A stretch of 63,998 nucleotides of DNA, the filler included, from Stramenopiles sp. TOSAG23-6 (lineage: Eukaryota): the NCBI GenBank assembly GCA_900128565.1. It is 18 parts of 18 records of this genome, joined end to end, with 100 filler letters (N's around TTAATTAATTAA, not from the genome) between each part and the next. Parts side by side here need not be neighbours in the genome. Positions count along the whole stretch, not along the records: positions 10,791 to 14,282 come from LT637474.1; 17 more parts are not named here. One strand, 5' to 3'. Each line of letters begins with the position of its first letter. Position 1 is the first letter of the stretch. The position numbers and the translations under genes were made by a program. The notes beneath the pieces are model-generated. The model did not search any database. It was not told where the DNA came from and was given only the letters and a program-made list of their open reading frames with translations. Positions 10,850-63,998 of the stretch are shown one piece after another.

Positions 10850-13800
10850 ATTCTTCTTCAAGTATAGCAATCAATTTATTACATAATACTAACACAGACG
10901 TTTTGCAAACAGTCTCAACCTCATCGGCTCTTCAGCAGCAAACTGTTCTATCTATTGCATGGAACAAATATGATGTAACAAATACTACCACTGGAATGTT
11001 TCTACTAGGTACGACGTCTGGGGATATTTTACAAATTGAAATAAAACGAAAAAAAACAAGTGAAAACAAAAATATCAATATTTCGTGTAAAAGACTGTTT
11101 CATCTTGAAGGAATGAATATATCAGGACTTTATATGGAAAAGATGCCTTTTCTGAAATCTAATCTTAAAAGTAAATGTATGTTTTATTTTTTTTTCAAAT
11201 TCGATTTTTTTTCGTACGAAATTTTGTACCTAACGATTTTTTTCTGAAATCTAATCTTAAAAGTAAATGGACGTCAGTTTCCACACAAGAACAAAGTTTA
11301 TCAAATTCGGAAAACAAATCTGAAACAAATGCTTCTTTTTGTCGTACAGATTCTGACCAAATAATGGAAACTACGACTTGGTTTATATTAGCTACAGGCA
11401 GAAACGCAAAACAGAAAATAATTCGTGTCTATGAATTTTTTGGAGGTCCAAATTTTGAGATATTATTTAAATATTACAAAAATAATTTTGATGAATTCAA
11501 GAGGAATGATAATAATGATAATATTGAGGAGGATAATAATGATAATATTGAGGAGGATAATAATGATAATATTGAGCAGGACCTACTAAATAATATAAAT
11601 GTAATGAATGAATACAAGCGAGATGCTACAACTCAGAATATTGGAGATATTTTCTGGGCGGATATTCCAGCAGGTATTCGAATGGAGAAACCAACACTAT
11701 CCATAGCTTCACCAGATGGTGGTGTTTCTGATGGGTTTGGTATTTTAACTGGTAATGGTTGTGTTTTTTGTAACAGTTCATTAGATAAAAAAAGAAAAAC
11801 AAAATCAACAGATGGTTTGATGACGTCATCGACCTCGGTAGTAACGAAGAGTCAATCAATTATAAACGATCCAGGATTTATCAAAATGAATATAGTTGAT
11901 AAAGATTCAATGAAATTTTCTCATGATATAAGTGTATCACAATATCATGTGTATTGTACAGATATTATCGATATAAGTGAAAATAACATGAAATATGAAA
12001 ATAACACGAAATATGAAAATGACACAAGACTACAAAAACAAGATAATTGTATAGTAAGTTTGCGCTTTCGTATAATTAGTATAATAACGAAATCTATCTT
12101 GTACCAGAAAATCTTTCCTCTAGAAAAAAAATGGTCTTGGGATAAGACACGAAATCTTGTCTCAAACAATTTGACAGGATTGTCAAATAAGATGAACAGT
12201 TTTCTCATTCATGATTTCGTATCTAATGAGAAATGGATTATATCTAGTCATAATATTTGGTTAATTTCTATAACTGGAGAAGATAGAAATCTTTGGTCTG
12301 ATTACTTGCAAAATGCAATACAACAATGTAAATCACTCAGTAACGAAAACAACCCGAATAAAATAAATTTTGTTGGTTTCAAAAAATCATTATTTTATTG
12401 TGAAAACGACAAACAACGAAATATTGTGAATATACAGTATGCGAATGCATTGTTTCGTCACAAAAACTATTCCGAAGCTGCAAAAAAGTATTTTATATCA
12501 AAGTGTTCATTTGAAGATGTAATTTTGAAATATTTTTCAATATTACCAATTGCAACAGATTTGGGTACAAACACTGATATTAAATTAGACATGGTTACTT
12601 CCCCAATTGAATCACTACTTGAATATCTACGTCTAATACTTTCAAAGAATATTCACCGAAACATGTATGTTTTTTTTTTTTCAATTTCAAATTTATTTTT
12701 TTTTCGTACGAAATTTCGTACCTAACAAATTTTACAAAAAAAAAAATTTCACAATACATGAGGAGCCAAAAAACAGTTATTTTAACATGGATGTGTCATT
12801 TGCTTATTTATAAAGTGCATATAGCAAAATGTGTCATTGGCTCCATACCTCAAAAACAATTAAAACATCAAAAGTATCGAAAAAGTGAAAAACACAGAAA
12901 ATATCTGACAGACAGAATTACAAAATCACAAAAATGTTTACAGTCCTACGTAAACATTTTGAGGGATTTTTTACTTCAATATAAATGTGATTTAGACTCT
13001 CGAACCACTTTAGCTGCTCTGAGTAATTTTGGGCAGATAAATGAATTAACATATTTTGCACAAGAAACAGGTTTGTGGCAACGTGTTCTTTACATTCATT
13101 CTCAACAGAAACAATTTCTGACTGCATTACGTATCTTACAAAAAATTCCACAACATGAAGCATCAGCTTTACATTACGAATTTTCGTTTGAATTCATGAA
13201 ACACATACCTAAAGAAACGATTCAAGTATGGATTTCTGGTACGTGTGACTTTTTAATCCCTCGTCAGTTAATGCCATCATTAGTTCAATATGAAGTGAAA
13301 ACGAATGATAATAGTAATAATAATGGTACAATTTCTGTACTTAAGTATTTGGAATATGTTACAGGTACAAATGTTTTAAGTGCTCCAATTACGTCACGAC
13401 CATCAAATATATCACAGAGAATGAAAACGAATCATAAACTTAATGATACAATAGAAAAATCAAATGTAAAGAATAAATCTTCAAGTACGAAATCTTGTAC
13501 AAAACATTTAGATGTAGTACAAAACAAACATCGCAAATATTTCAGAAAGATTTCGTGTCGTGATAGTTTTGTATTTAACTACTTTTTCCGTCTTTTAGCT
13601 AAAACTCAATCTGAAACTGAAGTTTTGAGGTTTTTAGCGGAACGAAAAGATGATGATATTGGTGTTATACTTAATCTAAATAGCGCGTTACGGATATGTA
13701 CGTTTACATTATGATTTTCAAATTGTTTTTTTTCGTACACAATTTCGTACCTAAGAAAAACATTCTTGTTTTTTTTATTTTTTCACAATACATGTCAACG

Positions 13801-14195
13801 TTTACACCTTACAAGATGTTGTATATATATTTATACCATGTTGCATTTATATAATGACGCAATGGATGTAGCGTTACAAAATAATCTTATCCATGAAGCA
13901 AAAGAAGTCATTAAAAATGTTGTGGATGATTCACAAATGAGTAAACATGAATGTTTTATTTTTTTTCAAATTCGTTTCTTTTTTCATACGAAATTTTGTA
14001 CCTAACGATTTTTTTTTTGAAATATTTTTACAAAATACATTTATGGCTTTCATTGATTCATTATTGTTTTCAGAAGAATAAAAATATAGAACAGGGTATG
14101 TCAATATTAAGTGAATGTGGCGATGTTTTAGATGTAGCATCAATCCTACCATTGATGCCTTCTTCTATAAAACTTCGTAGAGTAGGTCGACCAAT
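10850..14195 (+). CDS. VPS18: Vacuolar protein sorting 18 (PEP3), internal exons
   Basis: LLGTTSG, RVYEFFGG, EDRNLWSDYL, SFEDVILKY, ALRICQR...YNDAMDVAL and KHLWL motifs; one frame after removing introns 11177..11268, 12665..12759, 13698..13793 and 13949..14040, all ending AT. Confidence 0.85.
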
Positions 14196-14631
14196 GTACG
14201 TTTTCATCATGAATTTATTAATTTATTTTTTTTTGGTACGAAATTTTGTACCTAAACAAATTTTTGATTTTTTTTTTTTTTTNNNNNNNNNNNNNNNNNN
14301 NNNNNNNNNNNNNNNNNNNNNNNNNNTTAATTAATTAANNNNNNNNNNNNNNNNNNNNNNNNNNNNNNNNNNNNNNNNNNNNAATAAAAAATGTAAATAT
14401 TATTCTACAGTGTAGAGCATGATGGACTATACAGGAACCGAATTTTTATCAAACGAAAAAAAAATAGAAGAAGAGAAGAGTAAAAAAAAAGGCAAAGAAA
14501 TTCCTGAGATCCAATGTAAGTTTTTTTTTTCAATTTTGAATTTATGAATTTATGAATTTTTTTTTTTTTTCGTACGAAATTTTGTACCTAACAAATTTTT
14601 TTTTTTTTTGAAATATTTTTCCAAAATACAT

Positions 14632-17871: not shown

Positions 17872-18036
17872 NNNNNNNNNNNNNNNNNNNNNNNNNNNNN
17901 NNNNNNNNNNNNNNNTTAATTAATTAANNNNNNNNNNNNNNNNNNNNNNNNNNNNNNNNNNNNNNNNNNNNGTTAGGTACAAAATTTCGTACGAAAAAAA
18001 AATCGATTTTTTTGTTTAAAAAAAAATAAATCATAC

Positions 18037-19007: not shown

Positions 19008-19161
19008 CTCTTTGTGTTCTGCATGACAAACATGAAATTTTGATTTTCATCTGCCCTATCTCTCATTTTTTGACGGTTAGAATTTCGGTTAAGGAAAACC
19101 TCCGCGGTGTCATAAAATAAAAGACAATTATTGAAAAGAAGCATTGCAAAAAAATTAATAG

Positions 19162-19234
19162 TGGAGGTGGAGGGCATCGATCCCCCTGCCTCTCGCATGC
19201 AAAGCGAGCGCTCTACCAAGTGAGCTACACCCAA
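19162..19234 (-). tRNA. tRNA-Ala(TGC)
   Basis: D arm GCTC/GAGC, anticodon arm CTCGC-TTTGCAT-GCGAG, ATCG T-loop and G3:U70 Ala determinant; positions 1-2 are TT and do not pair. Confidence 0.85.
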
Positions 19235-35995: not shown

Positions 35996-37328
35996 ATTTC
36001 GGAAGGAAGTTCGTTTAGGATCATATAGATCTGTTGCTGCTGGCAGGTTGCCTCCACCAGCTGCAATTGTGGCCAGGCAAATGATTGCTGCTGATCCTGG
36101 GTTTACACCTTTATACAAGGAACGTATTCCATATGTTGTTGTATGTGGGCCACCTGTACCTAACCCTACCCCTAATCATGAAACCCTAACCCTAATTCAT
36201 TTTTTTTTTTCATAGTAAATTTCATACTTAACGAATTGTTTTCATGATTTTTTTTTTGAAATATTTTTCCAAAATACATGGATCCCGATTGTATGACCTT
36301 GTCGTATCACCAACACAAATCTTGAAATTTTCACCACCGATGTATGTTTTATTTTTTTTTAACAAAAAAATCGATTTTTTTTTCATACGAAATTTTGTAC
36401 CTAACAAATTTTTTAGAATTTTTTTTGAAATATTGTTCCAAAATACATACTTCATATTAATATTACATGGTATATAAATAAAATGATGGTGCCTGCACTT
36501 GCGAGATTATTTAACCTTGTAGGTGTTGATGTATCTGCCTGGTTGATGGATCCCCTAATTAAATTAAATGGATCAAAAAATCGTCAAAATGCTTTAGCTG
36601 AACTAAACGTTTTTCGTGTAGATAGGATCATTCAAGGAAATAGAAATAATACAAATGAAAGACACGAAAAACGTAAAAATAATTTACGTTGTATCGATAA
36701 ATATGTTAAACGACTTCAGTGTGGGGCTTGTGGAGGTGACGCTGCTAGAGGCAATTATTGTGACGATTGTCTTTCAGATCCTCAAAAATTACATTTTGTG
36801 TACGTTTTCATTATTTTTTTACCTAATTTTTTTTCGTACGAAATTTCGTACCTAACAAAAAACAAAAACAAAAAAAATATTTTTTCACAATACATAATTC
36901 AAAGTAATCTCTCTTCATCGGATAAAACTAGAAATTTGTACGTTGTCCCTTTTAAAATTACATTTGGTAAAAACATTGGTATATTTGATATCACTCTTTA
37001 TCAAATACCAAATTTTACATTATCTATTTTAATTTTTTTTTTTTTCATTTTAAAAATATACATTTTTAACATACCTAACAAATTTCAAATTTTGAAAAAT
37101 ATTTTTTTGCATTGTCTACTTCAGACGTTATGTCGTCTATGTATCTCAAAGGAAGACCCACAAAAAAGATTGGGGAGTATCGGAGGAGGTGAACTTTTAC
37201 AAAAATCTGCGATTTCGTGTTGTAATTTAGATTGTCCAGTTTTATATCGCAGAGCTTCAACACTTGTTCTTTGGAGGCACGCAAGACTTCTCCACAACCA
37301 ACTGAATGATGTATACAATACAAACTAG
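35996..37328 (+). CDS. REV3: DNA polymerase zeta catalytic subunit, C-terminal exons
   Basis: FRKEVRLGSY, ERIPYVVVCGPPGSRL, PALARLFNLVGVDV and CysA/CysB clusters (CCNLDCPVLY); GT-AT introns 36156..36279, 36342..36448, 36800..36895 and a fourth from 36938. Confidence 0.9.
36156..36279 (+). other. Representative non-canonical GT-AT spliceosomal-type intron
   Basis: cct|GTACCT...ccaaaatacAT|gga restores the conserved REV3 GxPGxRL motif. Confidence 0.85.
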
Positions 37329-37695: not shown

Positions 37696-39051
37696 TCATT
37701 TTTTCGCACCTGCTTTGATAAGTTGTGCAACTACTTTTCCATGACCCTCCCATGAAGCAATCATCAATGGTGTAGCTCCGTTTTTATTAGCATGATTTAC
37801 ATTAATATTCTCCGCTTTGAGAAGTTCCTCAACTACTCCCGCATGACCCATTTCTGAAGCAACATACAATGGGGTATCTCCGTATCTATTAGCATGATTG
37901 ACATTAGCACCAAGATCGATGAGTTTTTCAACTACTCCCGCACGACCCTTCTCTGAAGCAATATACAATGGGGTTTCCCCGTATTTATCAGTCTGCTCGA
38001 CATCAGCACCATTATCAAAAAGTAGTTTAACGACTTCTTCATTACCATTCTGTGAAGCAATAAACAATGGGGTTCTTCCGAATTCATCAGCCTGATTGAC
38101 ATTAGCACCTTTACCAAGAAGTAGTCCAACTACTCCAACATGACCATTCATTGAAACAAGATGTAATGCAGTATATCCGTGGTTATCAACCAGATTGACA
38201 TCAGCACCAGCAGTGATTAGTTGTGCAACAACTTCCGCATTTCTTTGACGCACAGCATGTAATAATTTGGCATTATTTTCTTCTTTTGCTCGTGCTTCGC
38301 TTTCTGCTTTCTGTTTTCGCATTGCTTTTGCTTCTTCTGCTGCTTTTTGTAGTTCATTTTGAAAAGCTAATGCTTCTTCTTGAGTCATCTGCGGCGCCGA
38401 TGGCTGAGGCGATCCACCACCACCACTGAATGCACAACCCATATCCCAATGTGTTGTTTTTGTATTATTGTCGATATAATATTTACGCCCTAACCGATCT
38501 CTTGCTTCCTCCCAACCATATGGTAGCGGGGAAATATTCGCCTCAGCACCACCACCTCCACAACCAGCAGCATCCTTCGGCGGCGCCGATGGCTCAACGG
38601 TCATATCAGCAGCAGCAGCAGCATCCTTCGGTGGCGCCGATGGCTCAACACGGCCTGCAGCTGCTCCATGCCCACGCAACGAACTGGAAACTTCTTCAGC
38701 AAGAACAATCGGGAGTGGGTCGTTCTGTGGAGATTCTATCATGTGAGCACCATTATCCATGTAAAAAAAATCACCGCGGCACTTAGGGTTTCCTCTATCT
38801 GATTTTTTTTCATTAAAACAGTATACAGGACTCCCGTTCGAATGCGTTCTTGCATCACCAGTATTAGGATCCACTACAGGTACACTACACCATGCACATC
38901 TTTTAGAGAAAACACCGCCTGAAAAAAGTCCCATTGTAGGAGCGTTCACGCAATCGTCCTTTGTCAAATACGACTTACAATCTGCACCCATACAAACTCC
39001 CGTCGTAAAACCAATCGCAATCAAAATCTGAAAGCATTTTCTTGTATTCAT
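37696..39051 (-). CDS. Signal peptide, Cys-rich domain, PSAP motifs, WW domain and ankyrin repeats
   Basis: LPYGWEE..GRKYYIDNNTKTTHW (WW); five to six GxTPL ankyrin repeats; EPSAPP twice and QPSAPQ. Confidence 0.85.
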   Translation of the reverse strand: MNTRKCFQILIAIGFTTGVCMGADCKSYLTKDDCVNAPTMGLFSGGVFSKRCAWCSVPVVDPNTGDARTHSNGSPVYCFNEKKSDRGNPKCRGDFFYMDNGAHMIESPQNDPLPIVLAEEVSSSLRGHGAAAGRVEPSAPPKDAAAAADMTVEPSAPPKDAAGCGGGGAEANISPLPYGWEEARDRLGRKYYIDNNTKTTHWDMGCAFSGGGGSPQPSAPQMTQEEALAFQNELQKAAEEAKAMRKQKAESEARAKEENNAKLLHAVRQRNAEVVAQLITAGADVNLVDNHGYTALHLVSMNGHVGVVGLLLGKGANVNQADEFGRTPLFIASQNGNEEVVKLLFDNGADVEQTDKYGETPLYIASEKGRAGVVEKLIDLGANVNHANRYGDTPLYVASEMGHAGVVEELLKAENINVNHANKNGATPLMIASWEGHGKVVAQLIKAGAKK

Positions 39052-39437
39052 TTCCTTAATTTTGTTGTTTGTTCTTTTGATGTCTTTTTATGATTAATAT
39101 TTAATGAGTTCATCGCAAGTGAGTTCCTCGCGCTGTTCATTTGCTGTTCATTTTTGTGCTGTTCATTACATGATGTAACCATTACCGGGTAACAGTTTCA
39201 CTATAGTTGATTAAATTTGGAAGCTTCAGACTCAGAGTCTTCTTCTTGTGTAATAAATAATACGTACTAGCCTACTAGACTCTAGAGTCATATGTCCTCC
39301 GTCCTGAGAGACTATCTCTTGCAGTGTAATACGTTATNNNNNNNNNNNNNNNNNNNNNNNNNNNNNNNNNNNNNNNNNNNNTTAATTAATTAANNNNNNN
39401 NNNNNNNNNNNNNNNNNNNNNNNNNNNNNNNNNNNNN

Positions 39438-40007
39438 GTAAGTAATGAATCATAAAAGTAACGGTCCACATTTGGCGAAATTGACGCAGACTAAAGAAGG
39501 AATAAACACAAAAAGAAATGATACATCTGTAAAGCGAACCTGTACACACATAGCTCATATGAAAAAAGAATGCAACGCATTCCCTTTCAATTTGTCAGTC
39601 AAGGTAAACTAAACTCCGAGAGAACTATAGATGTAAGTAATGAATCATAAAAGTAACGGTCCACATTTGGCGAAATTGACGCAGACTAAAGAAGGAATAA
39701 ACACAAAAAGAAATGATACATCTGTAAAGCGAACCTGTACACACATAGCTCATATGAAAAAAGAATGCAACGCATTCCCTTTCAATTTGTCAGTCAAGGT
39801 AAACTAAACTCCGAGAGAACTATAGATGTAAGTAATGAATCATAAAAGTAACGGTCCACATTTGGCGAAATTGACGCAGACTAAAGAAGGAATAAACACA
39901 AAAAGAAATGATACATCTGTAAAGCGAACCTGTACACACATAGCTCATATGAAAAAAGAATGCAACGCATTCCCTTTCAATTTGTCAGTCAAGGTAAACT
40001 AAACTCC
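39438..40007 (+). repeat. 195-bp tandem repeat, about 3 copies
   Basis: gtaagtaatgaatcataaaag at 39438, 39633 and 39828; diverged partial copy near 41245-41345. Confidence 0.92.
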
Positions 40008-42593: not shown

Positions 42594-42848
42594 GAAATAT
42601 GCCAATTGCTCAAACAACAGAAAATCCTCTTGGAATGGCTGTTGTTGCAGTAAAGGAAACAAGAGATGAACAATCAAATGTAGCTGCACCAACTGATGAA
42701 AACTCTAAAGAAGCAGAACAAAGAAATATGCCAATTGCTCAAACAAAAGCAAATCCTCTTGGAATGGCTGTTGTTGCAGTAAAGGACACAAGAGATGAAC
42801 AATCAAATGTAACTGCACCAACTGATGAAAACTCTAAAGAAGCAGAAC
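42594..42848 (+). repeat. 129-bp (43-aa) coding tandem repeat, 2 copies
   Basis: atgccaattgctcaaaca at 42599 and 42728 in an open frame. Confidence 0.88.
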
Positions 42849-43080
42849 ATCATCATCCTCTGCTACAATTTGAGAAGCAGTTACCGTCACTTGAAACACC
42901 AANNNNNNNNNNNNNNNNNNNNNNNNNNNNNNNNNNNNNNNNNNNNTTAATTAATTAANNNNNNNNNNNNNNNNNNNNNNNNNNNNNNNNNNNNNNNNNN
43001 NNTGTTTTATTTTTTTTTCAAAAATTTTTTTTTCGAAATAATTTTTAATTTTTTTTTTGGTTTGATTTTGCAACATGTAC

Positions 43081-43782
43081 ATACGCCCCCACAGCTTCAG
43101 ATGTCAAAGCATCATTCACTCGTCCAATTCCGTAGTCAGATACACCAATTCCACCATCATGTATTTTGGAAAAATATTTCAAAAAAAAAAACTAAAAATC
43201 GTTAGGTACAAAATTTCGTATGAAACATAAATTCGAAATTGAAAAAAAAATACAACATACATATTGTTGTCCGAGCATCGATAATTTATTCTGTTGAAAA
43301 TCCCTCATCGTGAATGTCTTTCTCATATTTGTGGTTGATGCACCATGACCTACTTGATATGTTGGTGTTGATCGTTCATTTTGTTCTTTCACAACTTTCA
43401 TAGTTTTATCAAGTTCTTGGAGTTTTTCTTCAAGGGTATCATATAAAATCAGATTCTCCTCAATCCCAACAACTTTTTCTGTGTAGTTGCTCAAAGACGC
43501 AGAAAGCCTCGCAGCTACTAAGGCAAAATAATTACATACTGCAACTTCATTATCCCAAGTATTTATTTGCTCTGAGAATCTACGAATAGGAGGCAGCGCA
43601 GACTCCACAATATATTTTTGAAGTGATTTCGAGTTAGGCAGTACAAGCTTTAACTCCTTCACAAAGTCCCGTCTTTGCTGGGGTTGAAATCCTTTCTGAA
43701 GATAACACATGAATAACTTTTCCAGTGGACTTTTTTCTGTGTGGGTTGAAGCATTATCATTTGTGGGTTTTGGGGACATCAT
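43081..43782 (-). CDS. Unknown protein, exons 1-2 (3' partial)
   Basis: Frame continues GQQY|DGGIGV across GT-AT intron 43159..43260. Confidence 0.6.
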
Positions 43783-44101: not shown

Positions 44102-45677
44102 ATGAGTTCCAGCACCATTTCTCTCCTCAACAACACTGAAGTCCAACTCCATAAAAAAAGCTTCATTCAGAGGTACAGCTCATTTGTTTTTACTTGTATT
44201 GGATGCATTCTATCTGGAAGTATAGTTTTTTCAACTTTGCACTTTTGTCGATATAGTGTTTCTTCGTATGCAATTTGTGCATATATGTACTGTACCGTTG
44301 CCTTGCTAGCATTTTTGAAGTGCTTTCGTCAGTATTGTGTCGCAGAAGTATTTGCTATACCTAACTTTCGCGCAGCTAGATATCTAACGTGGATACCATT
44401 TTACCTTAGTTTTTCCTCTGCTGCTAGAACACTTCAATTTACACTTGACGTTTGGGAGTATAAGTCACACTCGAATCCGTGTGATACCTCTTTGAAGCCG
44501 TTAGAATTTATAGTAGAAGATGTTTCTGATTCAACTCATACAAGTGTTAGATCAATGGCTCAGCGAGTAGCTACTTTACTATTTTACAGCGGGGTGAGTT
44601 GTGTAGTTTTATATTGGGCTGATGTTGATGTGCATGCACGTACGTTATCAGTAGGCTCTGGGTATTCTAGCGGGTTTGAACAGAATTTTCGTATTAATGG
44701 AAATACTACTACTCATCGAAAAATACCAAATTCTTGGGCAACGCAGCTACTCTTACTGCTAAATCTCTGGCTATATGTGTGTACTATTTTGTTTTTCTTC
44801 CTTGGAAAGTATCATTGGCATGTAAGTACAATTTACAGCATCGGTATTGATATGACAATTTTCATTTATATTTGTTTGTTAGTGACCACGGTTTTTTATG
44901 CCTTAAAAATGTACGTTTCAAAAAAAAAAGAAAAAAAAATTCGTACAAAAATTTGTACCTAACAAAAAAAAATTACAAAAACAAAATATTATTTTCCAAT
45001 ACATGAGACGAATTTTAAAAACTTTAGAGGCGAACATTCAACATCCTATAATTACTTCATTTCGATGTAAAACAAATGTAACTGTGATTATTTTGACGGT
45101 CTCATTTTTTATAAAGTGTTTTTTATGTACGTTTTTTTTTCGTACGAAATTTTGTACCTAAGATGTTTTTTTGAGCATTGTTTTTTCATTTCAAATTTAT
45201 TTTGTATGTAGAAAATTTCGTACCTAACAAAAAGATCAAACTTCAAACATATTCCCCCAAAATACATGGTGTTATAGACCACTTGGGCAGTTCCTGTTTG
45301 GTCCAAGTGGAGGTTGCATTCGTGGTATATTTTATAATATAGCATACCCCTGGTGTTTTTATCTTTTTCCTGAAATCATACCAACATTGTGGTTGATATA
45401 TATATTAGGTATCAATCCCGTCGGTAGGGTTAGGGTTCCAGAAAATGTTGAAAGGAATATAATAGAATCCAAAAATATAAATAACCCTAATACTCTTACT
45501 ATATGGGAATCAAAACATAATGGTAACGAGAATGAGAGGAATGAAGATTTTACGTGTAGGAATAAACATATTGCTGAATTAAATAGTTTTGGATTACACG
45601 GAGATTCTCTTGTAGAGTTAGGGTTAGGGTTACCGGGACCTTTTGCATTTACTGAACTACCCGAAAATAGTCGCTAA
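44102..45677 (+). CDS. TOM1/THH1/GPR137-like multi-pass membrane protein
   Basis: About seven hydrophobic segments, LLFYSGVSCVVLYWA and FYLFPEIIPTLWLIYIL; single frame after removing GT-AT introns 44911..45004 and 45127..45267. Confidence 0.7.
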
Positions 45678-45765: not shown

Positions 45766-46414
45766 TTAATTTTGTTTCCATATCTTTGTATGCTCAGGTC
45801 TGTCATAATATTCATCTTGTAAAGCTGACGTCATTCTATCAGCATTTTCGGTAGTCAATTCAGAAAACATTTCAAATGCGAGATCTTGAAAAGAACTTGC
45901 AATCCATTGAAACCAATAATTTGTTTCAAAACCTCCTCCAATTTCCATAATAGTCCATTCTTCTGGATTTTCTGGATGTTTTCCATATTTCTCAGTGATA
46001 ATCATGTTTTGTGGGAAAATATATATATTTTTGTTAGTAAAGAACATTAGTTAGCTATGAAATGTCTACCAAAAAGAAAAAAACAATTCATAATGTAATC
46101 GTACATTAGCCCCATCGTTGAAAAAGTTTCATTTTTGCTAATCATACTTAATTTTTTTTCTGCTTTATCTTCCAAAGATTCTTCGTTGAAGATAATACTT
46201 TCTGCAGATAATACTTTTTTAGCGACTTCAGGAATTGTGTTTTTATTCTCAAAATGTCGGATTCGTTTGATGCATTTCCACTCAGCTGACTCTATTTTGG
46301 ATTTCAACTTGACGCTAATTGTGTCAGGTGGGCGAAATTTTGCGATTTTATTGAAAACAACATATGCTACTTTGCCCCACGGTTGCTTCAATGTTTTTTT
46401 AAATGGTTTGAATA
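45766..46414 (-). CDS. Unknown protein, last two exons
   Basis: GLM|IITEKY joined in frame by GT-AT intron 46004..46104. Confidence 0.6.
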
Positions 46415-53780: not shown

Positions 53781-54658
53781 ATATTCTTTCCAAAGTTTCC
53801 AAGCTTCAAATACCATGTTATTCATCAACCTATTTAAAATGTTTGTAATTACTACCAAACCACGTTTAGCAACAAAATCCCGAGATCTCACTCGAAACAT
53901 CCAAGTATTGTGAAAAAATATGTTTTCAGTTTGATATTTGTTAGGTACGAAAATTTTAAAATTTTTTAGTAAAAAATAAATTTGAAATTGGATCACGTAC
54001 AATCAAATGGTAGCGTTTTTGCCACTTCATTCATTAGTTTGTGACTTTTTTTATGTATTTTTCTGGCACCTATTGTTAGATCTCGTTCATAGTCTCTGTA
54101 AAATTCAGTTTCCATTTGCATTTCTATAGGCAAGGCTAATAAACTATATTCTGGATGTACTGATTGCAACCTACCTTTCCGGGGGCGGCTAGACTGACGA
54201 TTTTGAGCATATTTTTTTTTCGTACGACTTTTAGTATAATGTTGTTGTCGAATAGGAGATAATCTATGCATTCGCATTGCCTTAGTACTACGGATTTCTT
54301 GGCCAGGGGTATCAAGCTGTAATGTTGAAAATGTAGGTAAAGAATTATTTCTTTTATCTAACGTCTTACGTGCAGTATATTTTTCCATATTTTGTAATTC
54401 TTGTGGTTTTTCTATAGTAACTCGTCGTATTTGAGGGGACATTCGAGGCGATAAAGAAGTACCATCAATCTCTGGAAATCCTGAATGATATTGACGGAAT
54501 TGAGGTGAGTCCAGTAGAATACTCCGTGCATCATCGGCATCTGTGGAAATCATATCTCGGAGCTCTTTCAATTCCGACAGTTGTACTGTATCATCAACAG
54601 GTCTATTTCGTTTACCTGTTTTCCTTGATCCAGTACTTGACAAGTTACGCACGTACAT
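53781..54658 (-). CDS. Unknown protein, exons 1-2 (3' partial)
   Basis: LPFD|WMFRV in frame across intron 53903..54000 (GT...TT). Confidence 0.6.
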
Positions 54659-57371: not shown

Positions 57372-58503
57372 ATTGATACAATTACAAATACAATACATTC
57401 ATTGGATAATTCAAATATATTAGAAAATGAAATTAAAATGACAAAATTAGATATTAAAGATTTACAAAAATTCAAAAATGAAATTATAACAAATCATTCA
57501 AATCAATATAAAACAATTGAACAAATTGTTTCAAACCCTAACCCTAGTAACCCTAACCCTAGGCGTCTCAATGAAGATTTAAATCAACATTTAAATGAAG
57601 ATTTAAATCAACATTTAAATGAAGATTTAAATGAACATTTAGAATTTGTTAAAAAAGCATATATGAAACAATCTGAACAAATATTTGAAAAATTTAATAC
57701 AATTGAAAAAGAATTACAAAAAGTTGAATTGTATAATAATGTATGTTTTTTTTTTCAATTTTGAATTTTTCAATTTCTATGTTTTTTTTTTTATAAAAAT
57801 TTTGTACCTAACAAATTTTCAAAAAAAAATTTGAAATATTTTCCAAAATACATCATATAAATGAAATATTTCAAAATGATATTAAAAAATCAAAACAAAA
57901 AATAAGAAAAAATAAATTACAAATTCAGAATCATTGTAAAAATACAGTATATACTCAAAAAAAATATGATTCAACAATTCATATACGAAAATATTTAGAT
58001 GAAAAAATGGATATATTGACGAAATGGCTATTTGATAGGACAAAATGTACGTTTTTATGATTTTTAATGATTTTAATGATTTTAATGATTTTAATGATTT
58101 TTAATGATTTTAATGATTTTAATGATTTTAATGATTTTTAAGGAATTTTTATGATTTTTAATGATTTTAATGATTTTAATGATTTTAATGATTTTTAATG
58201 ATTTTTATGATTTTAATGATTTTTATAACTTTTTTTTTTAAATTTAAAATTTTTTTTTTTTTTTTTTTTTTCATAGAAAATTTCATACCTAATGAATTTT
58301 TTTTTTTTAAATTTTTTTGTACAATACAGTTACACAAAAAGATCGAAAGGACAATAAATTACAAATTGCTCAAATTAAAAAACACAATAATACACAAAAA
58401 AAAGAAAATCAAACTCTCCTCAATAAAGTTCAAATTGCAGAAACACGAAATCAAGAAAAAATGGTAGTATTGAAACAATTACAAGAAGAAAATGAACAAT
58501 CAA
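57372..58503 (+). CDS. Lys/Asn-rich coiled-coil protein, internal exons
   Basis: Frame kept across introns 57741..57853 (GT-AT) and 58047..58329 (GT-AG); next intron 58504..58610 (GT-AG). Confidence 0.55.
58054..58224 (+). repeat. 9-10-bp intronic minisatellite (TTTTAATGA)n
   Basis: Roughly 17 imperfect units inside intron 58047..58329. Confidence 0.9.
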
Positions 58504-58511
58504 GTATGTTT

Positions 58512-58552
<41 letters not shown>

Positions 58553-58829
58553 TTTTGTACGTAATTTTGTACCTAACAATTTTTTTTTTTTTTTTTTTTT
58601 TACAATATAGGATTTACATGGCATATGTTCGAGTATTAATTTGTTATCTATTGAATTAGGCGAATTATCATTACTTTTACAAAGTATTCAATATAATCCA
58701 AAACAAGAATATCAAATATAAATTACCAAAAAATCAAAAAATTAAAAAAAAAATATTCAAAAAATAAAAAATATTCAAAAATAAATTTCAAATTTATTAA
58801 AAAAAAAAATCAGAAACCCTAACCCTAAT

Positions 58830-59699
58830 CTACTTTGCTTTTATTGCATTTTTTTTTCTTCGTGTTTGAACATCATGATTGAATAAACGTGCAATATTCA
58901 CTTCAGCCGTTGTGATTTGATCTCGTAAAAATAACAAATCAGATGACGTTTTTTGTAATTTCTCTGATGCACTTTTGACATTTTCATTGAGTAATTCTAC
59001 TATAATATAAAAAAAAATTTTGTAAAAAAAAAAAAAAAATGTTAGGTACAAATTTTACTATAAAAAAAAATTTTTGGAAAAAAAAAAAAAAAATTATGAA
59101 ATTTTTTTTTTGTTGTTTAGGTACAAATTTTACTATAAAAAAAAATTTCGAAAAAAAAAAAATGAACCAAGTAAAAATAAAAATAAAAGTACTAGGGTTA
59201 GGGTTTAAAAAAACATACATGCTTCCTGGTATTCATATTCTAGCATTATTGTCGCACCAAGCCACAAACATACTTTATTTGTCGGATTGATTTTAGCTGA
59301 TGCATACAAACTATCAGCAAGTGGAAAATTGGTGGTGAATGACACGTCATCATCATCTGATGTCTTTGAGTCATACTTTTTCTTGAGAAAAGAGACAACT
59401 TCATGAGTTCGTTGAATTTGTGGAATTTTCGTTCTGAGTGATAACTTTGTCCGTTGCATATGAGTTTCCATGAAACGATATTTTGATAATAACTCATTAA
59501 GATACTGAAACGTTGTCTCAAGTTGTAAATTATTCTTTTTGAGAAAGGATTCTACACTTTCAATGAAACGAACCTTTGGAATGCCAGAGGTGTTTTTTTC
59601 ATCTTCGATTGTAATGTGTTTCATAACTTTTTGTGCTAAAAGATTGACTTTAGTCACCGTATCGGGGTTTGTTAACGAAATCTTACTCTCATCGGACAT
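58830..59699 (-). CDS. VBP1: Prefoldin subunit 3 (VBP1)
   Basis: GIPKVRFIESV, KYRFME, KVCLWLGATIMLEY and LRDQITTAEVNIARLFNHDV motifs; GT-AG intron 59000..59218. Confidence 0.93.
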
Positions 59700-60915: not shown

Positions 60916-62800
60916 ATTCAGATTCAACAACAATAGGTCCTTTGTTTATATCGGTGTTATAGCGATGATTATGAAAAGTATCAAATTGGCTTAATTTATC
61001 CAATAATTCTTGAAATATTTGTAAAAGATTGTTTGATATTTTTTGAGGATAATTCATGTATTTTAGAAAAATATTTCAGAAAAAAAAAACTTAAATTCCT
61101 TAGGTACAAAATTTCGTATGAAAAAAAAATCAAATTTGAAAGAAAAATAAAACATACATTTTTTGTAGTGTATGAAAAATCTCGTCACGAAATCCAAACA
61201 AAGTATTTGAAGCAGATTTTAGTTTTTGATCCAGATCATTGTATATAAAATTTGTTTTTTTTGATGAGTCATTAGATGTCATTGAAGAAGATTGAAAGAG
61301 ACGAAATGTATTATGCAAAAATATTTTATTTTAGTAAAGAAATCGTTAGGTACAAAATTTCGTATGAAAACCAAAAAAAAAAATAAATTTAAAATGAATG
61401 ATGAAAACGGACATAGTTCAACCAAAAACGAGTCTCTATGCCCAGAGGCTCCACGTAATTTTCTCATATTATTTAATATGATGCTAATTAATTTATTCTT
61501 CTCTTTTAATATAATGTGAAGAAATATTTTTTTTTTTTTTTGGTTAGGTACGAAATTTCGTATGAAAAACAAATAAATTCGAAATTCAAAAAATTGAAAA
61601 AAATAAAACATTCATTCTTCCTCTGTTGAATCTAAATAAAATGCATCACTATTATTACCTAATTTCCCTTCAGTGCCTATTGTATCACTCATAAAATTAT
61701 TTTCTACCATAGACCGTATTTCAGTGTATGTACTGTGAAAAAATATTTTTATGTCACAAAAAAAACGTTAGGTACGGAATTTTGTATGAAAAAAAAAATC
61801 ATTAGAGACAATTTTTTTTACGAAAAAAAAAAATTTTAAAATTCATGATGAAAACGTAAATCCTTGAGCTGTTGCCTTGAGAATTTTACAGAGGCGGTGT
61901 TGCTTTCGTGCAATATTTGATTCTATTTTGTTCTCTGTTATGTTTGATGCTTGTATAGTATGTATTTTAGAAAAATATTTCAAAAACAAAAAAAATCGTT
62001 AGGTACAAAATTTCGTACGAAAAAAAAATAGAATTTGAAAAAAAAAAATAAAACATACATCTATATTTGTAGGTATTTTTGTTATTGTGTTTGTTGAATT
62101 GGTTTTAGTGTTATCAGTACTTAGATCTCTATAATGTGTTGAAGTATCTCTAAAAGTTTTTTTTTCTCTGAGTTAGTTGAAAAAATAAACAATGTTTTTT
62201 TTTCCATTTTTTTTTGCATGAAATTTTCATAGTAAAAATAAAAAATTAAAAAAAACATACAAAATCTTTAGCTGCTTTGCCTTCAATTCTTCATTTAAAT
62301 TGGAGAATCTATCATCATTTATCTTGCAGTTTTGCAATTTTCTTTGATGTATTATTATGTATTTAGTATCAAAACAAAAATGTTAGGTACAAAATGTACA
62401 ATCAGCAAAGTATGGAAAAAATACTCAAAAGTAGATTGTAGAAAAAAAACTGTTAGGTACAAAATTTCGTACGAAAAACAAATAGTACGTACAATGTTTT
62501 GAGATCTTCATCAGCCATTGATTGAAACATTTCGGTGCCACTGGTATCATGTATTGTTAAAAAATNTTTTTTTTTTTGTTTTTTGGTTAGGTACAAAATT
62601 TACTACAAAAAAAAATTTGAAAAAAAAAATTGAAAAAAAAATAAAAACGTACTTTGTCATTGTAGTCGAACAGTGTGCCGCCAAACATTGGAAAGTTTTT
62701 TGGCACAGGTGGAAGAAATGGACTTGCATTATAATTTAAACTGAAGTCTCTTTGTTGTGAAAATAATTCAATAATAAATTAGGGTTAGGGACTAAAGTGT
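60916..62800 (-). CDS. Unknown intron-rich gene (partial)
   Basis: Short exons chained in frame by family introns near 61056-61157, 61306-61432, 61509-61613, 61728-61859, 61960-62058 and 62549-62652; 62160-62490 not resolved. Confidence 0.55.
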
Positions 62801-63998
62801 ATCTGTAACCGTTTTCTAAGGATTTTCTAAGGATGTATAGAGTTAGAATAAAAAATGTTTGAACAGAGAAATCAAATAATTGTTGAAAAAGTAAATAAAA
62901 ATCAATTATATACCAATAAATACTACTACATACATGGATTTCACAAAGTTGAAAATATTACTGTACTGCTCCACATTCACTAATTCATTGTCACTCAAGT
63001 TTCTGTATAAAAAAATTCAAAATTGGTCAATATTTATTTGTTAGGTATGAAATTTCGTACCAAAAAAAAAAAAAAAAAAAAAAAAAACGAATACAATAAG
63101 GGTACAAAAATGTATTTGTTAGGTATGAAATTTCGTACCAAAAAAAAAAAAATTACAAAACATGATTAGGGTTAGGGTTCTCCACGTACAAATCGTCCAA
63201 AAAATACGACATGTCCCAATTATACACAGCCTTGTTTGAGGGCAGGTTTGTTAGATCTATAAACGTTGGATTTTTGATTGAATGTATTTTGGAAAAATAT
63301 TTAAAAAAAAAAATTTTGAAAATTTTGTTAGGTACAAAATTTTCAAAAAAAAATTTAGACAAAAAATTGAAAAAATATACAATGTACTTGTGGCCTAAGT
63401 AATGTTTGATCAAATGAAACCGTTAATTTGTAAATCTTATTATTTTGCAAATTTCTATACAGTTACAAAATATGTCAAAAAAATATTTTAATAAGTATTC
63501 AATTTTTTTTTTCGTAAAAAAATTTCATACCAAACAAAAAAAAAATCAAAAAAAAGATTCAAAATTTTTTGATACTATTTTTAAATTATACAATCAATGT
63601 AATTATTATTGGAAATAACCTACACTTTTTTTAGGGAAAACATTTCAAATAAAATAAAATTAATCTTTATCTCGGTTAGTCTATTATTAGATGCGTCCCT
63701 TTTGAGTTTGAGTAAGATTTTTTTTTTTTTTGAAAATTGTTTTTTNTTAGGTATGAAATTTCGTATGAAAAAAAAAAAAAAANATGCTGAAAATATACAC
63801 AAAAAGAAAGATGATGAAAATAAATATTTGCAATTACATAATATATAATTCAGTAAATATTTCAACATACAATGTTTCCAAAATTGTTAGGCTGCCAATC
63901 TCTGAAGGTAAGTTTTCTAATTGGTTGTTGTTGACATATCTACACTGTAACAAAATATATACAAAATCAATATTATACAATGAGAAAACTGCAAGAAT

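What the first reader, a model, noticed from the sequence alone, without database searches (positions are those of the whole stretch)
12665..12759. Introns look like one introner/MITE-like family with a palindromic core and terminal inverted repeats
Seen: unrelated introns share a 25-nt core TTTCGTACGAAATTT(T/C)GTACCTAAC with two overlapping palindromes (TTTCGTACGAAA and GTACGAAATTTCGTAC) directly before the CTAAC branch site. The ends are inverted (ATGTAT-GTTTT versus AAAATACAT), and the exon dinucleotide before GT is usually AT, the same as the last two intron bases, like a 2-bp target duplication; at 53903..54000 both are TT. Exceptions exist (CT, GT, TC, AA before GT). Established: introners are non-autonomous DNA transposons that can take a splice site from the target duplication. 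Inference: either mass intron gain by such an element or a selected extended branch hairpin that replaces AG recognition.
Basis: partly seen in the sequence, partly recalled or inferred. Interest (0 to 1): 0.82.

Follow-up and report, generated by a model that had tools for sequence, protein, structure and literature searches.

The report
Repeated intron family spliced GT...AT
Nearly every intron in this stretch of an uncultured marine protist genome is a copy of one ~100-base repeated element that seems to be cut out at a non-standard end (AT instead of AG), which looks like a new case of genes being filled with introns by a self-copying DNA element.

Summary
The 25-nt core occurs 49 times at up to 3 mismatches, against 0 expected. 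The window is 18 short contigs joined by linkers. A gene-model label points to a MAST-3-type marine stramenopile single-cell assembly.

I curated 42 complete introns of 92-283 nt:
- 5' end: GT 39, GA 2, TT 1.
- 3' end: AT 34, AG 7, TT 1.
- Preceding exon ends in AT in 31 of 42, against a 9.9% background.
- Removing them joins ORFs of at least 30 codons in 37 of 42. Frame-shifted controls give 8 and 6 of 42.

One junction is unambiguous. In a Rev3/Pol-zeta gene, only GT...AT splicing restores the conserved P-G-[AS]-R-L motif.

The similarity goes beyond splice signals. Full-length identity reaches 0.89, against a shuffled maximum of 0.69. It persists when the signals are masked. The 5' and 3' module types are linked (p=0.03). 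Tandem and nested copies occur.

The core hairpins show no covariation. The "AT duplication" is only weakly supported (P=0.037 and 0.17).

Best reading: an introner-like, self-propagated intron family spliced mostly GT-AT. The transposition mechanism is unproven. No RNA reads could be laid, and I found no published description.

The parts
12665..12759 (+). Focal intron, 95 nt, AT|GTATGT...CACAATACAT| (5' module A, 3' module B)
   Evidence: removal joins ORFs of 59+ and 60 codons; +1/+2 controls give 14 and 17
12702..12726 (+). 25-nt core. Palindromes at 12702-12713 and 12706-12721. Branch-site-like CTAAC at 12722-12726
36156..36279 (+). Key intron in a Rev3/Pol-zeta gene: CCT|GTACCT...AAAATACAT|GGA. 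The exon ends in CT, so the boundary is not ambiguous by 2 nt
   Evidence: only GT..AT gives CGPP|GSRL = conserved x-G-x-P-G-[AS]-R-L (P 101/114, G 91/114)
34573..34727 (+). INO1 intron 1, a family member ending ATTATAG| (GT-AG). Holds an inverted core followed by a forward core
   Evidence: gives [14 protein letters not shown] as in homologues P0002, P0003, P0010
34872..35049 (+). INO1 intron 2, a family member ending AAATACAG| (GT-AG)
   Evidence: gives SAG|IKPVSIV as in homologues
13949..14040 (+). Family intron with a GA at the 5' end: AT|GAATGT...AAATACAT|
   Evidence: ORFs of 60 and 60 codons joined; controls 4 and 12
61509..61613 (-). Family intron with a GA at the 5' end: AT|GAATGT...CATTATAT|
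61728..61859 (-). Family intron with TT at the 5' end: AT|TTACGT...CAGTACAT|
53903..54000 (-). Family intron TT|GTACGT...CACAATACTT| (the TT/TT case)
11177..11268 (+). Family intron flanked by a 29-nt direct repeat (exon copy 11148-11176, intron tail 11240-11268)
   Evidence: suffix repeat 29
22828..23061 (-). Two family introns back to back (22969-23061, then 22828-22968) with no exon between them
7600..7745 (-). Family intron TG|GTATGT...CATTTTAG| with CCCTAAC-like repeats after the 5' site
9880..9998 (-). Family intron AT|GTATGT...AAATAAAT|
13698..13793 (+). Family intron AT|GTACGT...CACAATACAT|
14516..14631 (+). Family intron AT|GTAAGT...CAAAATACAT|
22180..22281 (-). Family intron TC|GTANGT...AAAACACAT|
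22452..22549 (-). Family intron with a degenerate core: AT|GTATGT...AACAATATAT|
29264..29372 (+). Family intron AT|GTTTGT...CACAAGATAT|
29468..29574 (+). Family intron with a degenerate core: AT|GTACGT...AAAATTATAT|
29723..29817 (+). Family intron AT|GTACGT...CACAATACAT|
29938..30036 (+). Family intron AT|GTATGT...TTCAATACAT|
30160..30252 (+). Family intron AT|GTACGT...TACAATACAT|
32501..32602 (+). Family intron in a mitochondrial-carrier-like gene: AT|GTATGT...AAAAAACAT|
32782..32899 (+). Family intron AT|GTTTGT...AAAAAAAAT|
33016..33153 (+). Family intron GT|GTATGT...CACAATACAT|
36342..36448 (+). Family intron (Rev3 gene) AT|GTATGT...CAAAATACAT|
36800..36895 (+). Family intron (Rev3 gene) GT|GTACGT...CACAATACAT|
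43159..43260 (-). Family intron AT|GTATGT...CAAAATACAT| (duplicate copy in contig 14)
   Evidence: 0.89 identical to the intron at 61056
44911..45004 (+). Family intron AT|GTACGT...TCCAATACAT|
45127..45267 (+). Family intron with two cores: AT|GTACGT...CAAAATACAT|
46004..46104 (-). Family intron AT|GTACGA...CACAAAACAT|
57741..57853 (+). Family intron AT|GTATGT...CAAAATACAT|
58047..58329 (+). Family intron, 283 nt, swollen by a (TTTTAATGA)n array. Ends TACAATACAG| (GT-AG)
58504..58610 (+). Family intron AA|GTATGT...TACAATATAG| (GT-AG)
59000..59218 (-). Family intron with two tandem cores in a gene I read as prefoldin-like. Ends TATTATAG| (GT-AG)
61056..61157 (-). Family intron AT|GTATGT...TAAAATACAT|
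61306..61412 (-). Family intron AT|GTCCGT...CATAATACAT|
61960..62058 (-). Family intron AT|GTATGT...TAAAATACAT|
62150..62260 (-). Family intron with a degenerate core: TT|GTATGT...AAACTTTTAG| (GT-AG)
62357..62492 (-). Family intron with two cores: TT|GTACGT...CTAAATACAT|
62549..62652 (-). Family intron AA|GTACGT...AACAATACAT|
63282..63380 (-). Family intron TT|GTATAT...CAAAATACAT| (5' site less certain)
3403..3498 (+). Partial family intron (5' part and core) cut by a contig end. Similar partial copies lie at 7197-7285(-), 10593-10690(-), 10791-10851(+), 14196-14282(+), 17972-18036(-), 32294-32346(+), 46415-46467(-), 53525-53596(-), 53697-53780(-), 57260-57371(+), 60821-60915(-)
33493..33517 (+). 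Degenerate solo core (TTTAGTACGAAATTTTGTACCAAAT) between two genes, with no recognisable intron ends
10168..10192 (+). Core-like fragment lying antisense to the ORF on the minus strand

Best explanation
What the window is. It is a chain of about 3.5-kb contigs from an AT-rich marine stramenopile; the only name a tool gave carries 'MAST3'.

What interrupts the genes. Roughly once per kilobase the genes are broken by copies of a single short element of about 92-140 nt. Its layout is:
- a 5' end (AT)|GTAYGTTTT;
- an A/T-rich 5' module in two versions;
- a 25-nt core built from two tandem 12-nt units (GAAATTTCGTAC) that ends in the branch-site-like TACCTAAC;
- a 3' module in two versions;
- a 3' end AAAATACAT| or CACAATACAT|.

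Shown:
- The copies are homologous over their whole length and fall into linked subfamilies.
- Removing them restores long reading frames.
- At one unambiguous junction only GT...AT removal restores a conserved protein motif.
- Positionally equivalent copies in INO1 end in AG.

Inferred:
- They are spliceosomal introns. Each copy brings its own 5' splice site and branch site.
- The 3' cut falls after the element's terminal A-T (or A-G after a T-to-G change). Splicing then removes the insert and leaves the host reading frame intact.
- The family arose by self-propagation, as an 'introner'. The most likely route is DNA-level insertion at AT dinucleotides.

The DNA-transposon step and the 2-bp duplication are the weakest links.
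For: - Motif excess: 49 matches against 0.00 expected.
- Splice ends in the 42 curated introns: 5' GT 39 of 42; 3' AT 34, AG 7, TT 1.
- ORF continuity: at least 30 codons on both sides in 37 of 42. With the 3' end slid by +1 or +2 the counts are 8 and 6 of 42.
- Rev3 junction: 114 homologue stretches show x-G-x-P(101)-G(91)-[AS]-R-L. The window gives CGPP|GSRL only with CCT|GT...ACAT|GGA.
- INO1 junctions YINGSPQ and SAGIKPV fix two family introns as GT-AG, at the same position as the ...ACAT| end of the others.
- Full-length identity between introns of different contigs reaches 0.89. Shuffled sequences give a median of 0.59 and a maximum of 0.69.
- With the 5' site, core and 3' end masked, 27 of 253 (5' filler) and 57 of 253 (3' filler) pairs still beat every shuffled pair. 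The 5'-versus-3' cross-comparison stays lower than the like-with-like comparisons (maximum 0.57 against 0.80 and 0.76), though above the shuffled maxima.
- 5' and 3' module types co-occur: 9/5/1/7, Fisher p=0.031.
- Tandem, nested or inverted copies occur at 22828-23061, 45127-45267, 59000-59218, 62357-62492 and 34573-34727.
- 12 of 32 unique contig ends lie inside the element.
- Degenerate core pieces lie outside introns and in antisense.
- An independent metagenome contig, L001, carries the same architecture.
- The preceding exon ends in AT in 31 of 42, against a 9.9% background.
Against: - No RNA evidence. Every junction is therefore inferred from frames and homology.
- For the 31 introns preceded by AT, GT...AT cannot be told from AT...AC, because both give the same mRNA.
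- The target-duplication signal is weak. Only 1 of 11 non-AT exon ends matches its intron end. Permutation P=0.037; Fisher p=0.17.
- The terminal inverted repeat is at most 6 bp, and its 5' half is simply a good 5' splice site.
- No transposase or autonomous copy lies in the window, and contig 12 has no long ORF.
- I found no clear intron that is not of this type. A lineage-wide constraint on all introns is therefore not excluded.
- Conservation of intron positions in other species could not be tested.
- Only 64 kb of one fragmented assembly and one further contig were seen.
Confidence: 0.62

Rival explanations
1. Same repeated intron family, but spread through RNA or recombination rather than as a DNA transposon. 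Possible routes are reverse splicing of excised introns into other transcripts followed by reverse transcription and recombination, or tandem duplication and gene conversion between introns. On this view the AT before the 5' site is a preferred 'proto-splice site', not a target duplication.
For: - Nearly all intact copies lie in sense orientation inside ORF-bearing regions.
- The TSD test is weak.
- Tandem duplications of 75-78 nt inside introns, and a 29-nt repeat, show that local duplication is active.
- Exon +1 is G in 19 of 37, as at ordinary splice junctions.
Against: - Degenerate core fragments occur between genes and in antisense: 33493, 10168, 34594 and contig 12.
- The short inverted ends and the strong AT flank resemble MITE-type introners described in reviews (PMC11282704, passages read).
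Confidence: 0.2
2. Not a mobile family. These are old introns that all converged on long, strict splice signals because this lineage's spliceosome needs an extended branch region or hairpin and no longer reads AG. The precedent is the strict signals of intron-poor algae and yeasts.
For: - Every recognisable intron in the window has the same 5' site and the same branch core.
- The core is the best-conserved part, with 94% mean column identity.
- Earlier scan notes on another genome (e1-562441, e1-567715) found that an 'introner-like' look was only strict signals.
Against: - Similarity persists in the filler once the signals are masked.
- The 5' and 3' modules are linked.
- There are tandem and nested copies.
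- Neither hairpin covaries: shuffles reach the observed covariation score in 200 of 500 and 401 of 500 trials.
- Fold z-scores run from -0.06 to -1.52 for 5 of 6 introns.
- Core changes are mostly CpG transitions (65 of 89).
- Intron density is high, about one per kb. By my recollection strict signals go with intron-poor genomes.
Confidence: 0.1
3. They are AT-AC (minor, U12-like, or U2-type AT-AC) introns. The real boundaries lie 2 nt upstream at both ends: |ATGTAYGT...AYAC|AT.
For: - 31 of 42 are preceded by AT, and 27 of the first 37 curated end in ACAT, so AT...AC gives the same mRNA.
- The three introns without GT at the 5' end (GA, GA, TT) all keep the AT.
- The core ACCTAAC faintly resembles the U12 branch site. 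In Physarum, minor introns were multiplied, possibly by a transposon (10.1101/2020.10.12.336362, passages read).
Against: - At 36156-36279 the shift would put H where 101 of 114 homologues have P.
- 11 of 42 would then start with GT, CT, TT, AA, TC or TG.
- The U12 5' motif [AG]TATCC is absent. Positions +3 to +6 are A, Y, G, T in nearly all.
- The branch motif lies mostly about 34-46 nt from the 3' end, further than the 9-12 nt reported for Physarum U12 branch points, though within the ~45-base limit that paper gives.
- The INO1 family introns are GT-AG.
Confidence: 0.04
4. An artefact of single-cell amplification, assembly or record concatenation rather than real biology.
For: - The window is a concatenation with N linkers, duplicated contigs and scattered N calls.
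- Contig 6 has inverted duplicated ends, and contig 10 looks chimeric after INO1.
Against: - The element sits at frame-preserving positions in 37 of 42 cases.
- An independent metagenome contig carries it.
- The copies differ from each other by ordinary substitutions.
Confidence: 0.02

Closest known systems
Introner elements of Micromonas pusilla and Aureococcus anophagefferens, and the wider 'introner' families (Gozashti et al. 2022, PMC9860276; 2025, PMC12130899; review PMC11282704). I read passages of each, not the supplements.
   Same: - Many introns in unrelated genes are copies of one short non-coding element.
- The ends are short and inverted, with a short flanking repeat.
- The element supplies splice signals, so insertion into coding sequence is tolerated.
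- The host is an aquatic protist.
   Different: - Described introners of these algae use canonical GT-AG. Here 34 of 42 end in AT.
- The flanking repeat is only 2 bp and palindromic (AT), against 3-9 bp in the literature passages.
- The element carries the branch site in a conserved tandem-palindrome core.
- No autonomous partner or polymorphism has been shown here.
Non-canonical, MITE-derived introns of the tunicate Fritillaria borealis (Henriet 2019, as summarised in PMC11282704; NAR 2026, PMC13326754; passages read).
   Same: - Mass gain of transposon-like introns goes together with a spliceosome that accepts non-AG 3' ends, including 3' AT/AU.
- Canonical introns are a minority.
   Different: - In Fritillaria the 5' end is mostly AG (AG-AC, AG-AT) and the ends are very diverse. 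Here the 5' end is a yeast-like GTAYGT and the 3' end is nearly uniform.
- Fritillaria has duplicated U2AF genes. The splicing factors of this organism could not be examined.
Introner elements and non-canonical introns of Amoebophrya (Farhat et al. 2021, PMC7789003; passages read).
   Same: - Repeated introns with inverted repeats at the ends and short direct repeats overlapping the boundaries.
- No transposase was found for most of them.
- The boundaries are ambiguous because of the direct repeat.
   Different: - Amoebophrya has no dominant terminal dinucleotide and has 8-20-nt inverted repeats that form hairpins.
- Here the ends are uniform (GT...AT), the inverted repeat is at most 6 bp, and folding is weak.
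Expanded minor (U12-type) introns of Physarum polycephalum (Larue, Elias and Roy; 10.1101/2020.10.12.336362; passages read).
   Same: - Thousands of introns with unusual ends (including GT-AT, AT-AT and AT-AA).
- A proposed origin from an element with inverted ends and a dinucleotide (TA) target.
   Different: - Physarum introns keep the U12 5' motif [AG]TATC[CT]TT and a branch point 9-12 nt from the 3' end.
- Neither feature is present here.
Strict splice signals of intron-poor eukaryotes (GTATGT / TACTAAC in yeasts; the Ostreococcus signals in earlier scan notes e1-562441 and e1-567715).
   Same: A near-invariant 5' GTAYGT and a branch motif CTAAC.
   Different: - Here the filler between the signals is homologous too.
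- Introns are dense.
- The 3' end is not YAG.

Membership tests
Introner (repeated, self-propagated spliceosomal intron family) | Introns of unrelated genes share sequence along their whole length, beyond the splice signals | tested here: met
   Identity up to 0.89 against a shuffled maximum of 0.69. Masked filler: 27 of 253 and 57 of 253 pairs lie above all shuffles. Modules are linked, p=0.031.
Introner (repeated, self-propagated spliceosomal intron family) | The copies are removed from mRNA by splicing | tested here: inconclusive
   The evidence is indirect only. ORFs are joined in 37 of 42, against 8 and 6 of 42 in the controls. Homology holds across 3 junctions. No RNA reads could be laid.
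Introner (repeated, self-propagated spliceosomal intron family) | Recent gain: lineage-specific positions or presence/absence polymorphism | not testable with these tools
   No genome of the organism or of its relatives is held. The metagenome scan gave a single contig.
MITE-type DNA transposon | Target-site duplication flanking each copy | tested here: inconclusive
   AT precedes 31 of 42 and ends 34 of 42. The two dinucleotides are identical in 28 of 42 against 25.2 expected (P=0.037). Fisher p=0.17. Only 1 of 11 non-AT cases matches. AT is palindromic.
MITE-type DNA transposon | Terminal inverted repeats specific to the family | tested here: inconclusive
   ATGTAT/ATACAT only. The perfect match is at most 6 bp (7 of 42 have 6, 14 of 42 have 0). 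In subfamily A it extends to about 10 of 11 with one gap, judged by eye.
MITE-type DNA transposon | Copies in both orientations and outside genes; a cognate autonomous element with a transposase | tested here: inconclusive
   Only degenerate fragments lie antisense or between genes. There is no transposase-sized ORF in the gene-poor contig 12. The rest of the genome was not available.
U12-type (minor) introns | 5' splice site [AG]TATCCTT | tested here: not met
   Among the first 37 curated introns, position +3 is A in 34, +4 is T or C in 35, +5 is G in 34 and +6 is T in 36. That is GTAYGT, not TATCC.
U12-type (minor) introns | AT-AC (or GT-AG) termini with the branch site close to the 3' end | tested here: not met
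   AT-AC is excluded at 36156-36279 by homology. The distance from the branch motif to the 3' end is mostly 34-46 nt.
Helitron-like element (inserts between A and T, with a subterminal 3' hairpin) | 5' TC and 3' CTRR termini, with a hairpin 10-12 nt from the 3' end (features recalled, not taken from a call) | tested here: not met
   The termini read (T)GTAYG...AYA(T). The palindromic core lies about 35-45 nt from the 3' end. Only the A/T insertion context fits.
Structured (hairpin-dependent) non-conventional introns, euglenid type | A conserved RNA helix supported by compensatory changes | tested here: not met
   Core helices: shuffles reach the observed covariation score in 200 of 500 and 401 of 500 trials. 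Fold z-scores run from -0.06 to -2.70, and only 1 of 6 lies below -2.

The most novel reading that the evidence does not exclude
In this MAST-3-type stramenopile the major spliceosome routinely removes GU...AU introns, about four in five of all introns. Almost the whole intron set was created by one AT-associated mobile element whose own last bases serve as the 3' splice site. AG ends (7 of 42, including both resolved INO1 introns) would then be secondary T-to-G 'repairs'. This would be a eukaryote whose default 3' splice site is not AG while its 5' site and branch site are textbook. It implies a changed 3'-site reader (U2AF small subunit or second-step factors) that co-evolved with an intron invasion.
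Probability: 0.45. Interest if true: 0.85.

Novelty: new variant of a known kind. Interest (0 to 1): 0.72.

Why it matters
How genomes acquire introns in bulk is a long-standing question. So is how far the spliceosome's "GT-AG rule" can bend. Known introner invasions mostly keep GT-AG. The known large-scale rule-breakers (Fritillaria, Amoebophrya, euglenids) have heterogeneous ends.

This case pairs a canonical 5' site and branch site with a nearly uniform non-AG 3' end, inside one recognisable element family, in an abundant but uncultured group of ocean protists. That would be a clean natural experiment on 3' splice-site recognition and on intron gain.

There is also a practical consequence. 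GT-AG-only gene finders will mis-build most genes here. The one gene model I saw for this sequence, P0001, skips real coding segments and runs into an intron. Gene catalogues and functional inferences for this lineage may therefore be badly incomplete.

Tried and rejected
- Whole genome: none is held.
- RNA evidence. The look-up of sequencing runs listed coded runs that hold part of contig 10: DNA runs at 0.81, 0.67 and 0.35 of the sampled words, and polyA metatranscriptomes at 0.25 or less. I could not lay them. These shares are therefore not used as evidence of expression, splicing or habitat.
- Same-species transcripts through protein searches. The INO1 exon search found only the assembly's own mis-spliced model and a 74% relative. 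The mitochondrial-carrier exon search with 'longer' found one distant hit.
- Metagenome scan for the core: one contig only.
- Rfam on the window: only a tRNA, so no snRNA was available to test pairing with the core.
- Pfam on the two large exons of the focal gene: no family. My first impression of a Vps18-like protein is unsupported. PDB searches of its small exons gave nothing or failed on my frame error.
- Automatic choice of the 3' site by regex or PWM often picked A-rich decoys. The final table was curated by hand from those outputs. Several 3' ends (for example 29264, 29938, 33016) were chosen with knowledge of the reading frame, so the ORF-continuity count is not fully blind.
- Hairpin, end-pairing and U12 readings were considered and rejected or down-weighted, as set out under the rival explanations.
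- Literature. Searches for the motif, introner + palindrome (12), GT-AT + introner (16), MAST + introns, introner + MAST terms (54) and introners + noncanonical + stramenopile (79) found no description of this family. The main texts of PMC5778133, PMC8163842 and PMC12614181 say nothing about unusual introns (find mode). Their supplements are closed and might do so.


Full report
What the window is.
- The 63,998 bases are not one locus. They are 18 contigs of about 3.5 kb, sorted by length and joined by N44-TTAATTAATTAA-N44 linkers.
- Contig 1 equals contig 2 and contig 13 equals contig 14. Contig 6 has inverted duplicated ends.
- GC content is about 24-45%, and long ORFs read in the standard code. 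No whole genome is held.
- An INO1 exon search returned, as best hit, a gene model labelled 'eukprot:GSMAST32.ASY1.ANO1.1357.1'. Its sequence is this same DNA translated with wrong splice choices.
- The best named relatives are oomycetes and other stramenopiles, at about 58-61% identity.
- I therefore treat the source as a MAST-3-type marine stramenopile single-cell assembly. That is an inference from a label.

The observation.
- The focal sequence at 12665-12759 reads aaacAT|GTATGT...TTTCGTACGAAATTTCGTACCTAAC...CACAATACAT|gaggag.
- The 25-nt core matches 49 times at up to 3 mismatches (18 exact). Expected from shuffles: 0.00.
- After dropping 5 redundant hits and one hit with an N, 43 window copies and one metagenome copy align without gaps at 94% mean column identity.
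- The first palindrome is perfect in 18 of 44 copies. The second is perfect in only 3 of 44, because position 16 is usually T.

The introns.
- From motif, PWM and frame scans I curated 42 complete introns of 92-283 nt.
- 5' ends: GT 39, GA 2, TT 1. 3' ends: AT 34, AG 7, TT 1.
- The four last bases were ACAT in 27 of the first 37 curated.
- The exon dinucleotide before the intron is AT in 31 of 42, against 9.9% for AT in the rest of the window.
- The phases are 11, 19 and 12.
- Removing each intron joins open frames of at least 30 codons on both sides in 37 of 42. Sliding the 3' end by +1 or +2 gives 8 and 6 of 42.
- Some 3' ends were picked with the reading frame in view, so this count is not fully blind.
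- About a dozen further partial copies sit at contig ends. By script, 12 of 32 unique contig ends lie inside the element. That is what a high-copy repeat does to an assembly.

Where exactly is the cut?
- For the 31 introns preceded by AT, GT...AT and AT...AC give the same mRNA, so they cannot be told apart.
- Three junctions are resolved by homology.
- In INO1, tblastn with P0002 and a reading of the DNA show AT|GTACGT...ATTATAG|C and AT|GTACGT...AAATACAG|T. These give EGSSY-INGSPQ and SAG-IKPV, as in homologues P0002, P0003 and P0010.
- So these two family introns are GT-AG. Their AG occupies the position of the AT in the other copies.
- In a Rev3/Pol-zeta gene (PDB hits 7lxd_A and 6v8p_A, E=1.4e-4), the exon ends ...TGT GGG CCA CCT and is followed by GTACCT...AAAATACAT|GGA TCC CGA.
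- Among the 150 best library homologues, 114 stretches match ERxPYxxx. They continue x-G(108)-x-P(101)-G(91)-[AS]-R-L.
- The window gives C-G-P-P|G-S-R-L only if the intron is removed as GT...AT. A 1-nt slide (TG...CA) is the only equivalent.
- The -2 shift, CT...AC, would put H at the position where 101 of 114 homologues have P.
- This is the strongest evidence available to me for a non-AG 3' end. It is still not RNA evidence.
- The one read-laying run was lost to a filter.

One family, not just shared signals.
- Full-length global identity between introns of different contigs reaches 0.89 (for example 61056 with 43159). The median is 0.65. Shuffled introns give a median of 0.59 and a maximum of 0.69.
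- I then masked the first 9 nt, the 25-nt core and the last 9 nt. The remaining 5' fillers still beat every shuffled pair in 27 of 253 comparisons, and the 3' fillers in 57 of 253. Comparisons of 5' filler against 3' filler score lower than like against like (maximum 0.57 against 0.80 and 0.76), though above the shuffled maxima.
- Two 5' modules exist: A, GTATGTTTTATTTTTTTTTCAAATTCGAATTT; and B, GTACGTTTTCATCATGAATTTCAAATTT.
- Two 3' modules exist: A, ...TTGAAATATTTTTCCAAAATACAT; and B, ...TATTTTTTCACAATACAT.
- The 5' and 3' types co-occur: 9 A/A, 7 B/B, 5 A/B and 1 B/A (Fisher p=0.031). Base +4 (T or C) tracks the 5' module.
- There are back-to-back copies (22828-23061), two-core introns (45127-45267, 59000-59218, 62357-62492) and an intron with an inverted and then a forward core (34573-34727).
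- One intron's last 29 nt are repeated in the exon just upstream (11148-11176 and 11240-11268). I read this as an exonised remnant of a tandem copy.
- Degenerate core fragments lie between genes, antisense to an ORF, and in the gene-poor contig 12.
- An independent metagenome contig, L001, has one intron of the same build.

What the core is not shown to be.
- Neither the 4-bp helix (columns 1-4 with 9-12) nor the 6-bp helix (columns 5-10 with 15-20) covaries. Shuffles reach the observed covariation score in 200 of 500 and 401 of 500 trials. The commonest variant (G5 to A) breaks a pair.
- Six introns folded as RNA give z-scores of -0.06, -0.25, -0.56, -0.92, -1.52 and -2.70.
- Of 89 differences from the inferred ancestral core, 65 are transitions at the six CpG positions. 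That is a DNA-level decay pattern.
- The core itself is two tandem copies of a 12-nt unit, and some introns carry three.
- Its 3' end (TACCTAAC) is the only obvious branch site. It is the best-kept part, and that is enough to explain its conservation.

Transposon signatures.
- They are present but thin. The ends read ATGTAT...ATACAT.
- The perfect inverted match, counted from exon position -2, is 6 bp in 7 of 42 introns, 5 bp in 6 of 42, and zero in 14 of 42.
- AT is palindromic, so the "2-bp duplication" could equally be part of the inverted repeat.
- The exon and intron terminal dinucleotides are identical in 28 of 42, against 25.2 expected (permutation P=0.037). The AT versus non-AT table (27/4/7/4) gives Fisher p=0.17.
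- Only the TT/TT intron (53903-54000) covaries, among 11 non-AT cases.
- No autonomous element is in the window.

Comparison with what is known.
- Reviews and primary papers (passages read: PMC11282704, PMC9860276, PMC12130899, PMC7789003, PMC13326754, 10.1101/2020.10.12.336362) describe four relevant things.
- Introners are MITE-like elements with 3-9-bp duplications and inverted ends.
- Mass intron gain often goes with tolerance of non-canonical borders.
- Fritillaria has AG-AC and AG-AT introns and U2AF paralogues that bind AU and AC ends.
- Physarum has multiplied U12 introns with a proposed TA-target element.
- The present family works like an introner and fails none of the tests that could be run. 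The tests that define mobility (polymorphism, empty sites, an autonomous partner) could not be run.
- It is not U12-type: the 5' motif, the branch distance and the Rev3 junction all disagree.

Is it in print?
- Seven full-text searches found no description of it.
- The MAST genome papers I opened in find mode do not mention unusual introns.
- Earlier scan notes on another genome are a reminder that uniform intron signals can be mistaken for introners. The masked-filler test was run to meet that objection.

Verdict.
- The 'one family' reading is supported.
- The GT...AT reading is supported by frames, and by homology at one unambiguous junction.
- DNA transposition with an AT duplication is plausible but unproven.
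- The hairpin alternative is not supported.

Noticed in passing
whole window, e.g. 9187-9197(-), 9685-9695(-), 10389-10399(-), 33440-33450(-), 36184-36194(+), 40394-40404(-), 57536-57561(+), 59193-59203(-), 63167-63177(-): A second over-represented short motif, (A)AACCCTAACCCTA(A/G), which is two telomere-like units. It has 38 matches at up to 1 mismatch against 0.14 expected. From the examples I compared by eye, it tends to lie in the same orientation as the nearby gene. It occurs inside ORFs (read as NPNPN, five times in one contig-3 ORF), just after the 5' site of several family introns, and between genes. L001 has it too. Function unknown: it could be a promoter or telo-box-like signal, or a repair footprint.
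   Followed up: partly
1-63998: The window is 18 length-sorted contigs joined by N44-TTAATTAATTAA-N44 linkers. Contigs 1/2 and 13/14 are duplicates, and contig 6 has inverted duplicated ends. Counts made on the raw window are inflated unless de-duplicated.
   Followed up: yes
33671-35173 (+), protein P0001: The public gene model for this INO1 gene skips two real coding segments and ends by reading into the third intron. Annotation that allows only GT-AG probably mis-builds many genes of this assembly.
   Followed up: partly
35174-35766 (+): INO1 stops after ...DDMVH at an intron-like GTAGGT. The rest of the gene is absent and the contig ends with the tail of a different ORF. This is either a chimeric contig or a rearrangement.
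   Followed up: no
11148-11176 and 11240-11268 (+): A 29-nt perfect direct repeat. The last 29 nt of intron 11177-11268 also stand in the exon directly upstream, where they read in frame as ...FLKSNLKSK. It looks like an exonised remnant of a tandem intron copy.
   Followed up: partly
58056-58250 (+): A (TTTTAATGA)n minisatellite has expanded inside family intron 58047-58329.
   Followed up: no
core columns 4-5, 8-9, 16-17 of alignment A1: 65 of 89 core substitutions are CpG-to-TpG or CpG-to-CpA transitions. This hints at cytosine methylation of the repeats, or at general CpG decay in this genome.
   Followed up: partly
25088-28375 (-), 54899-57211 (+), 37696-39087 (-), 122-1567 (-): Several long genes with higher GC have no intron at all (a 1095-aa ORF, an EF-hand repeat protein, an ankyrin/WW protein, a MoaA-like protein). 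AT-rich genes such as the one on contig 18 have an intron every 100-250 nt. The intron load is very uneven.
   Followed up: no
19161-19234 (-): A tRNA-Ala(TGC) gene, the only Rfam or ARAGORN hit in the window.
   Followed up: no
39438-42902: Contig 12 has no ORF above 121 aa. It holds short dispersed repeats (for example ggtctagtttcattgta) plus degenerate core pieces and CCCTAA motifs. It may be intergenic or subtelomeric DNA.
   Followed up: no
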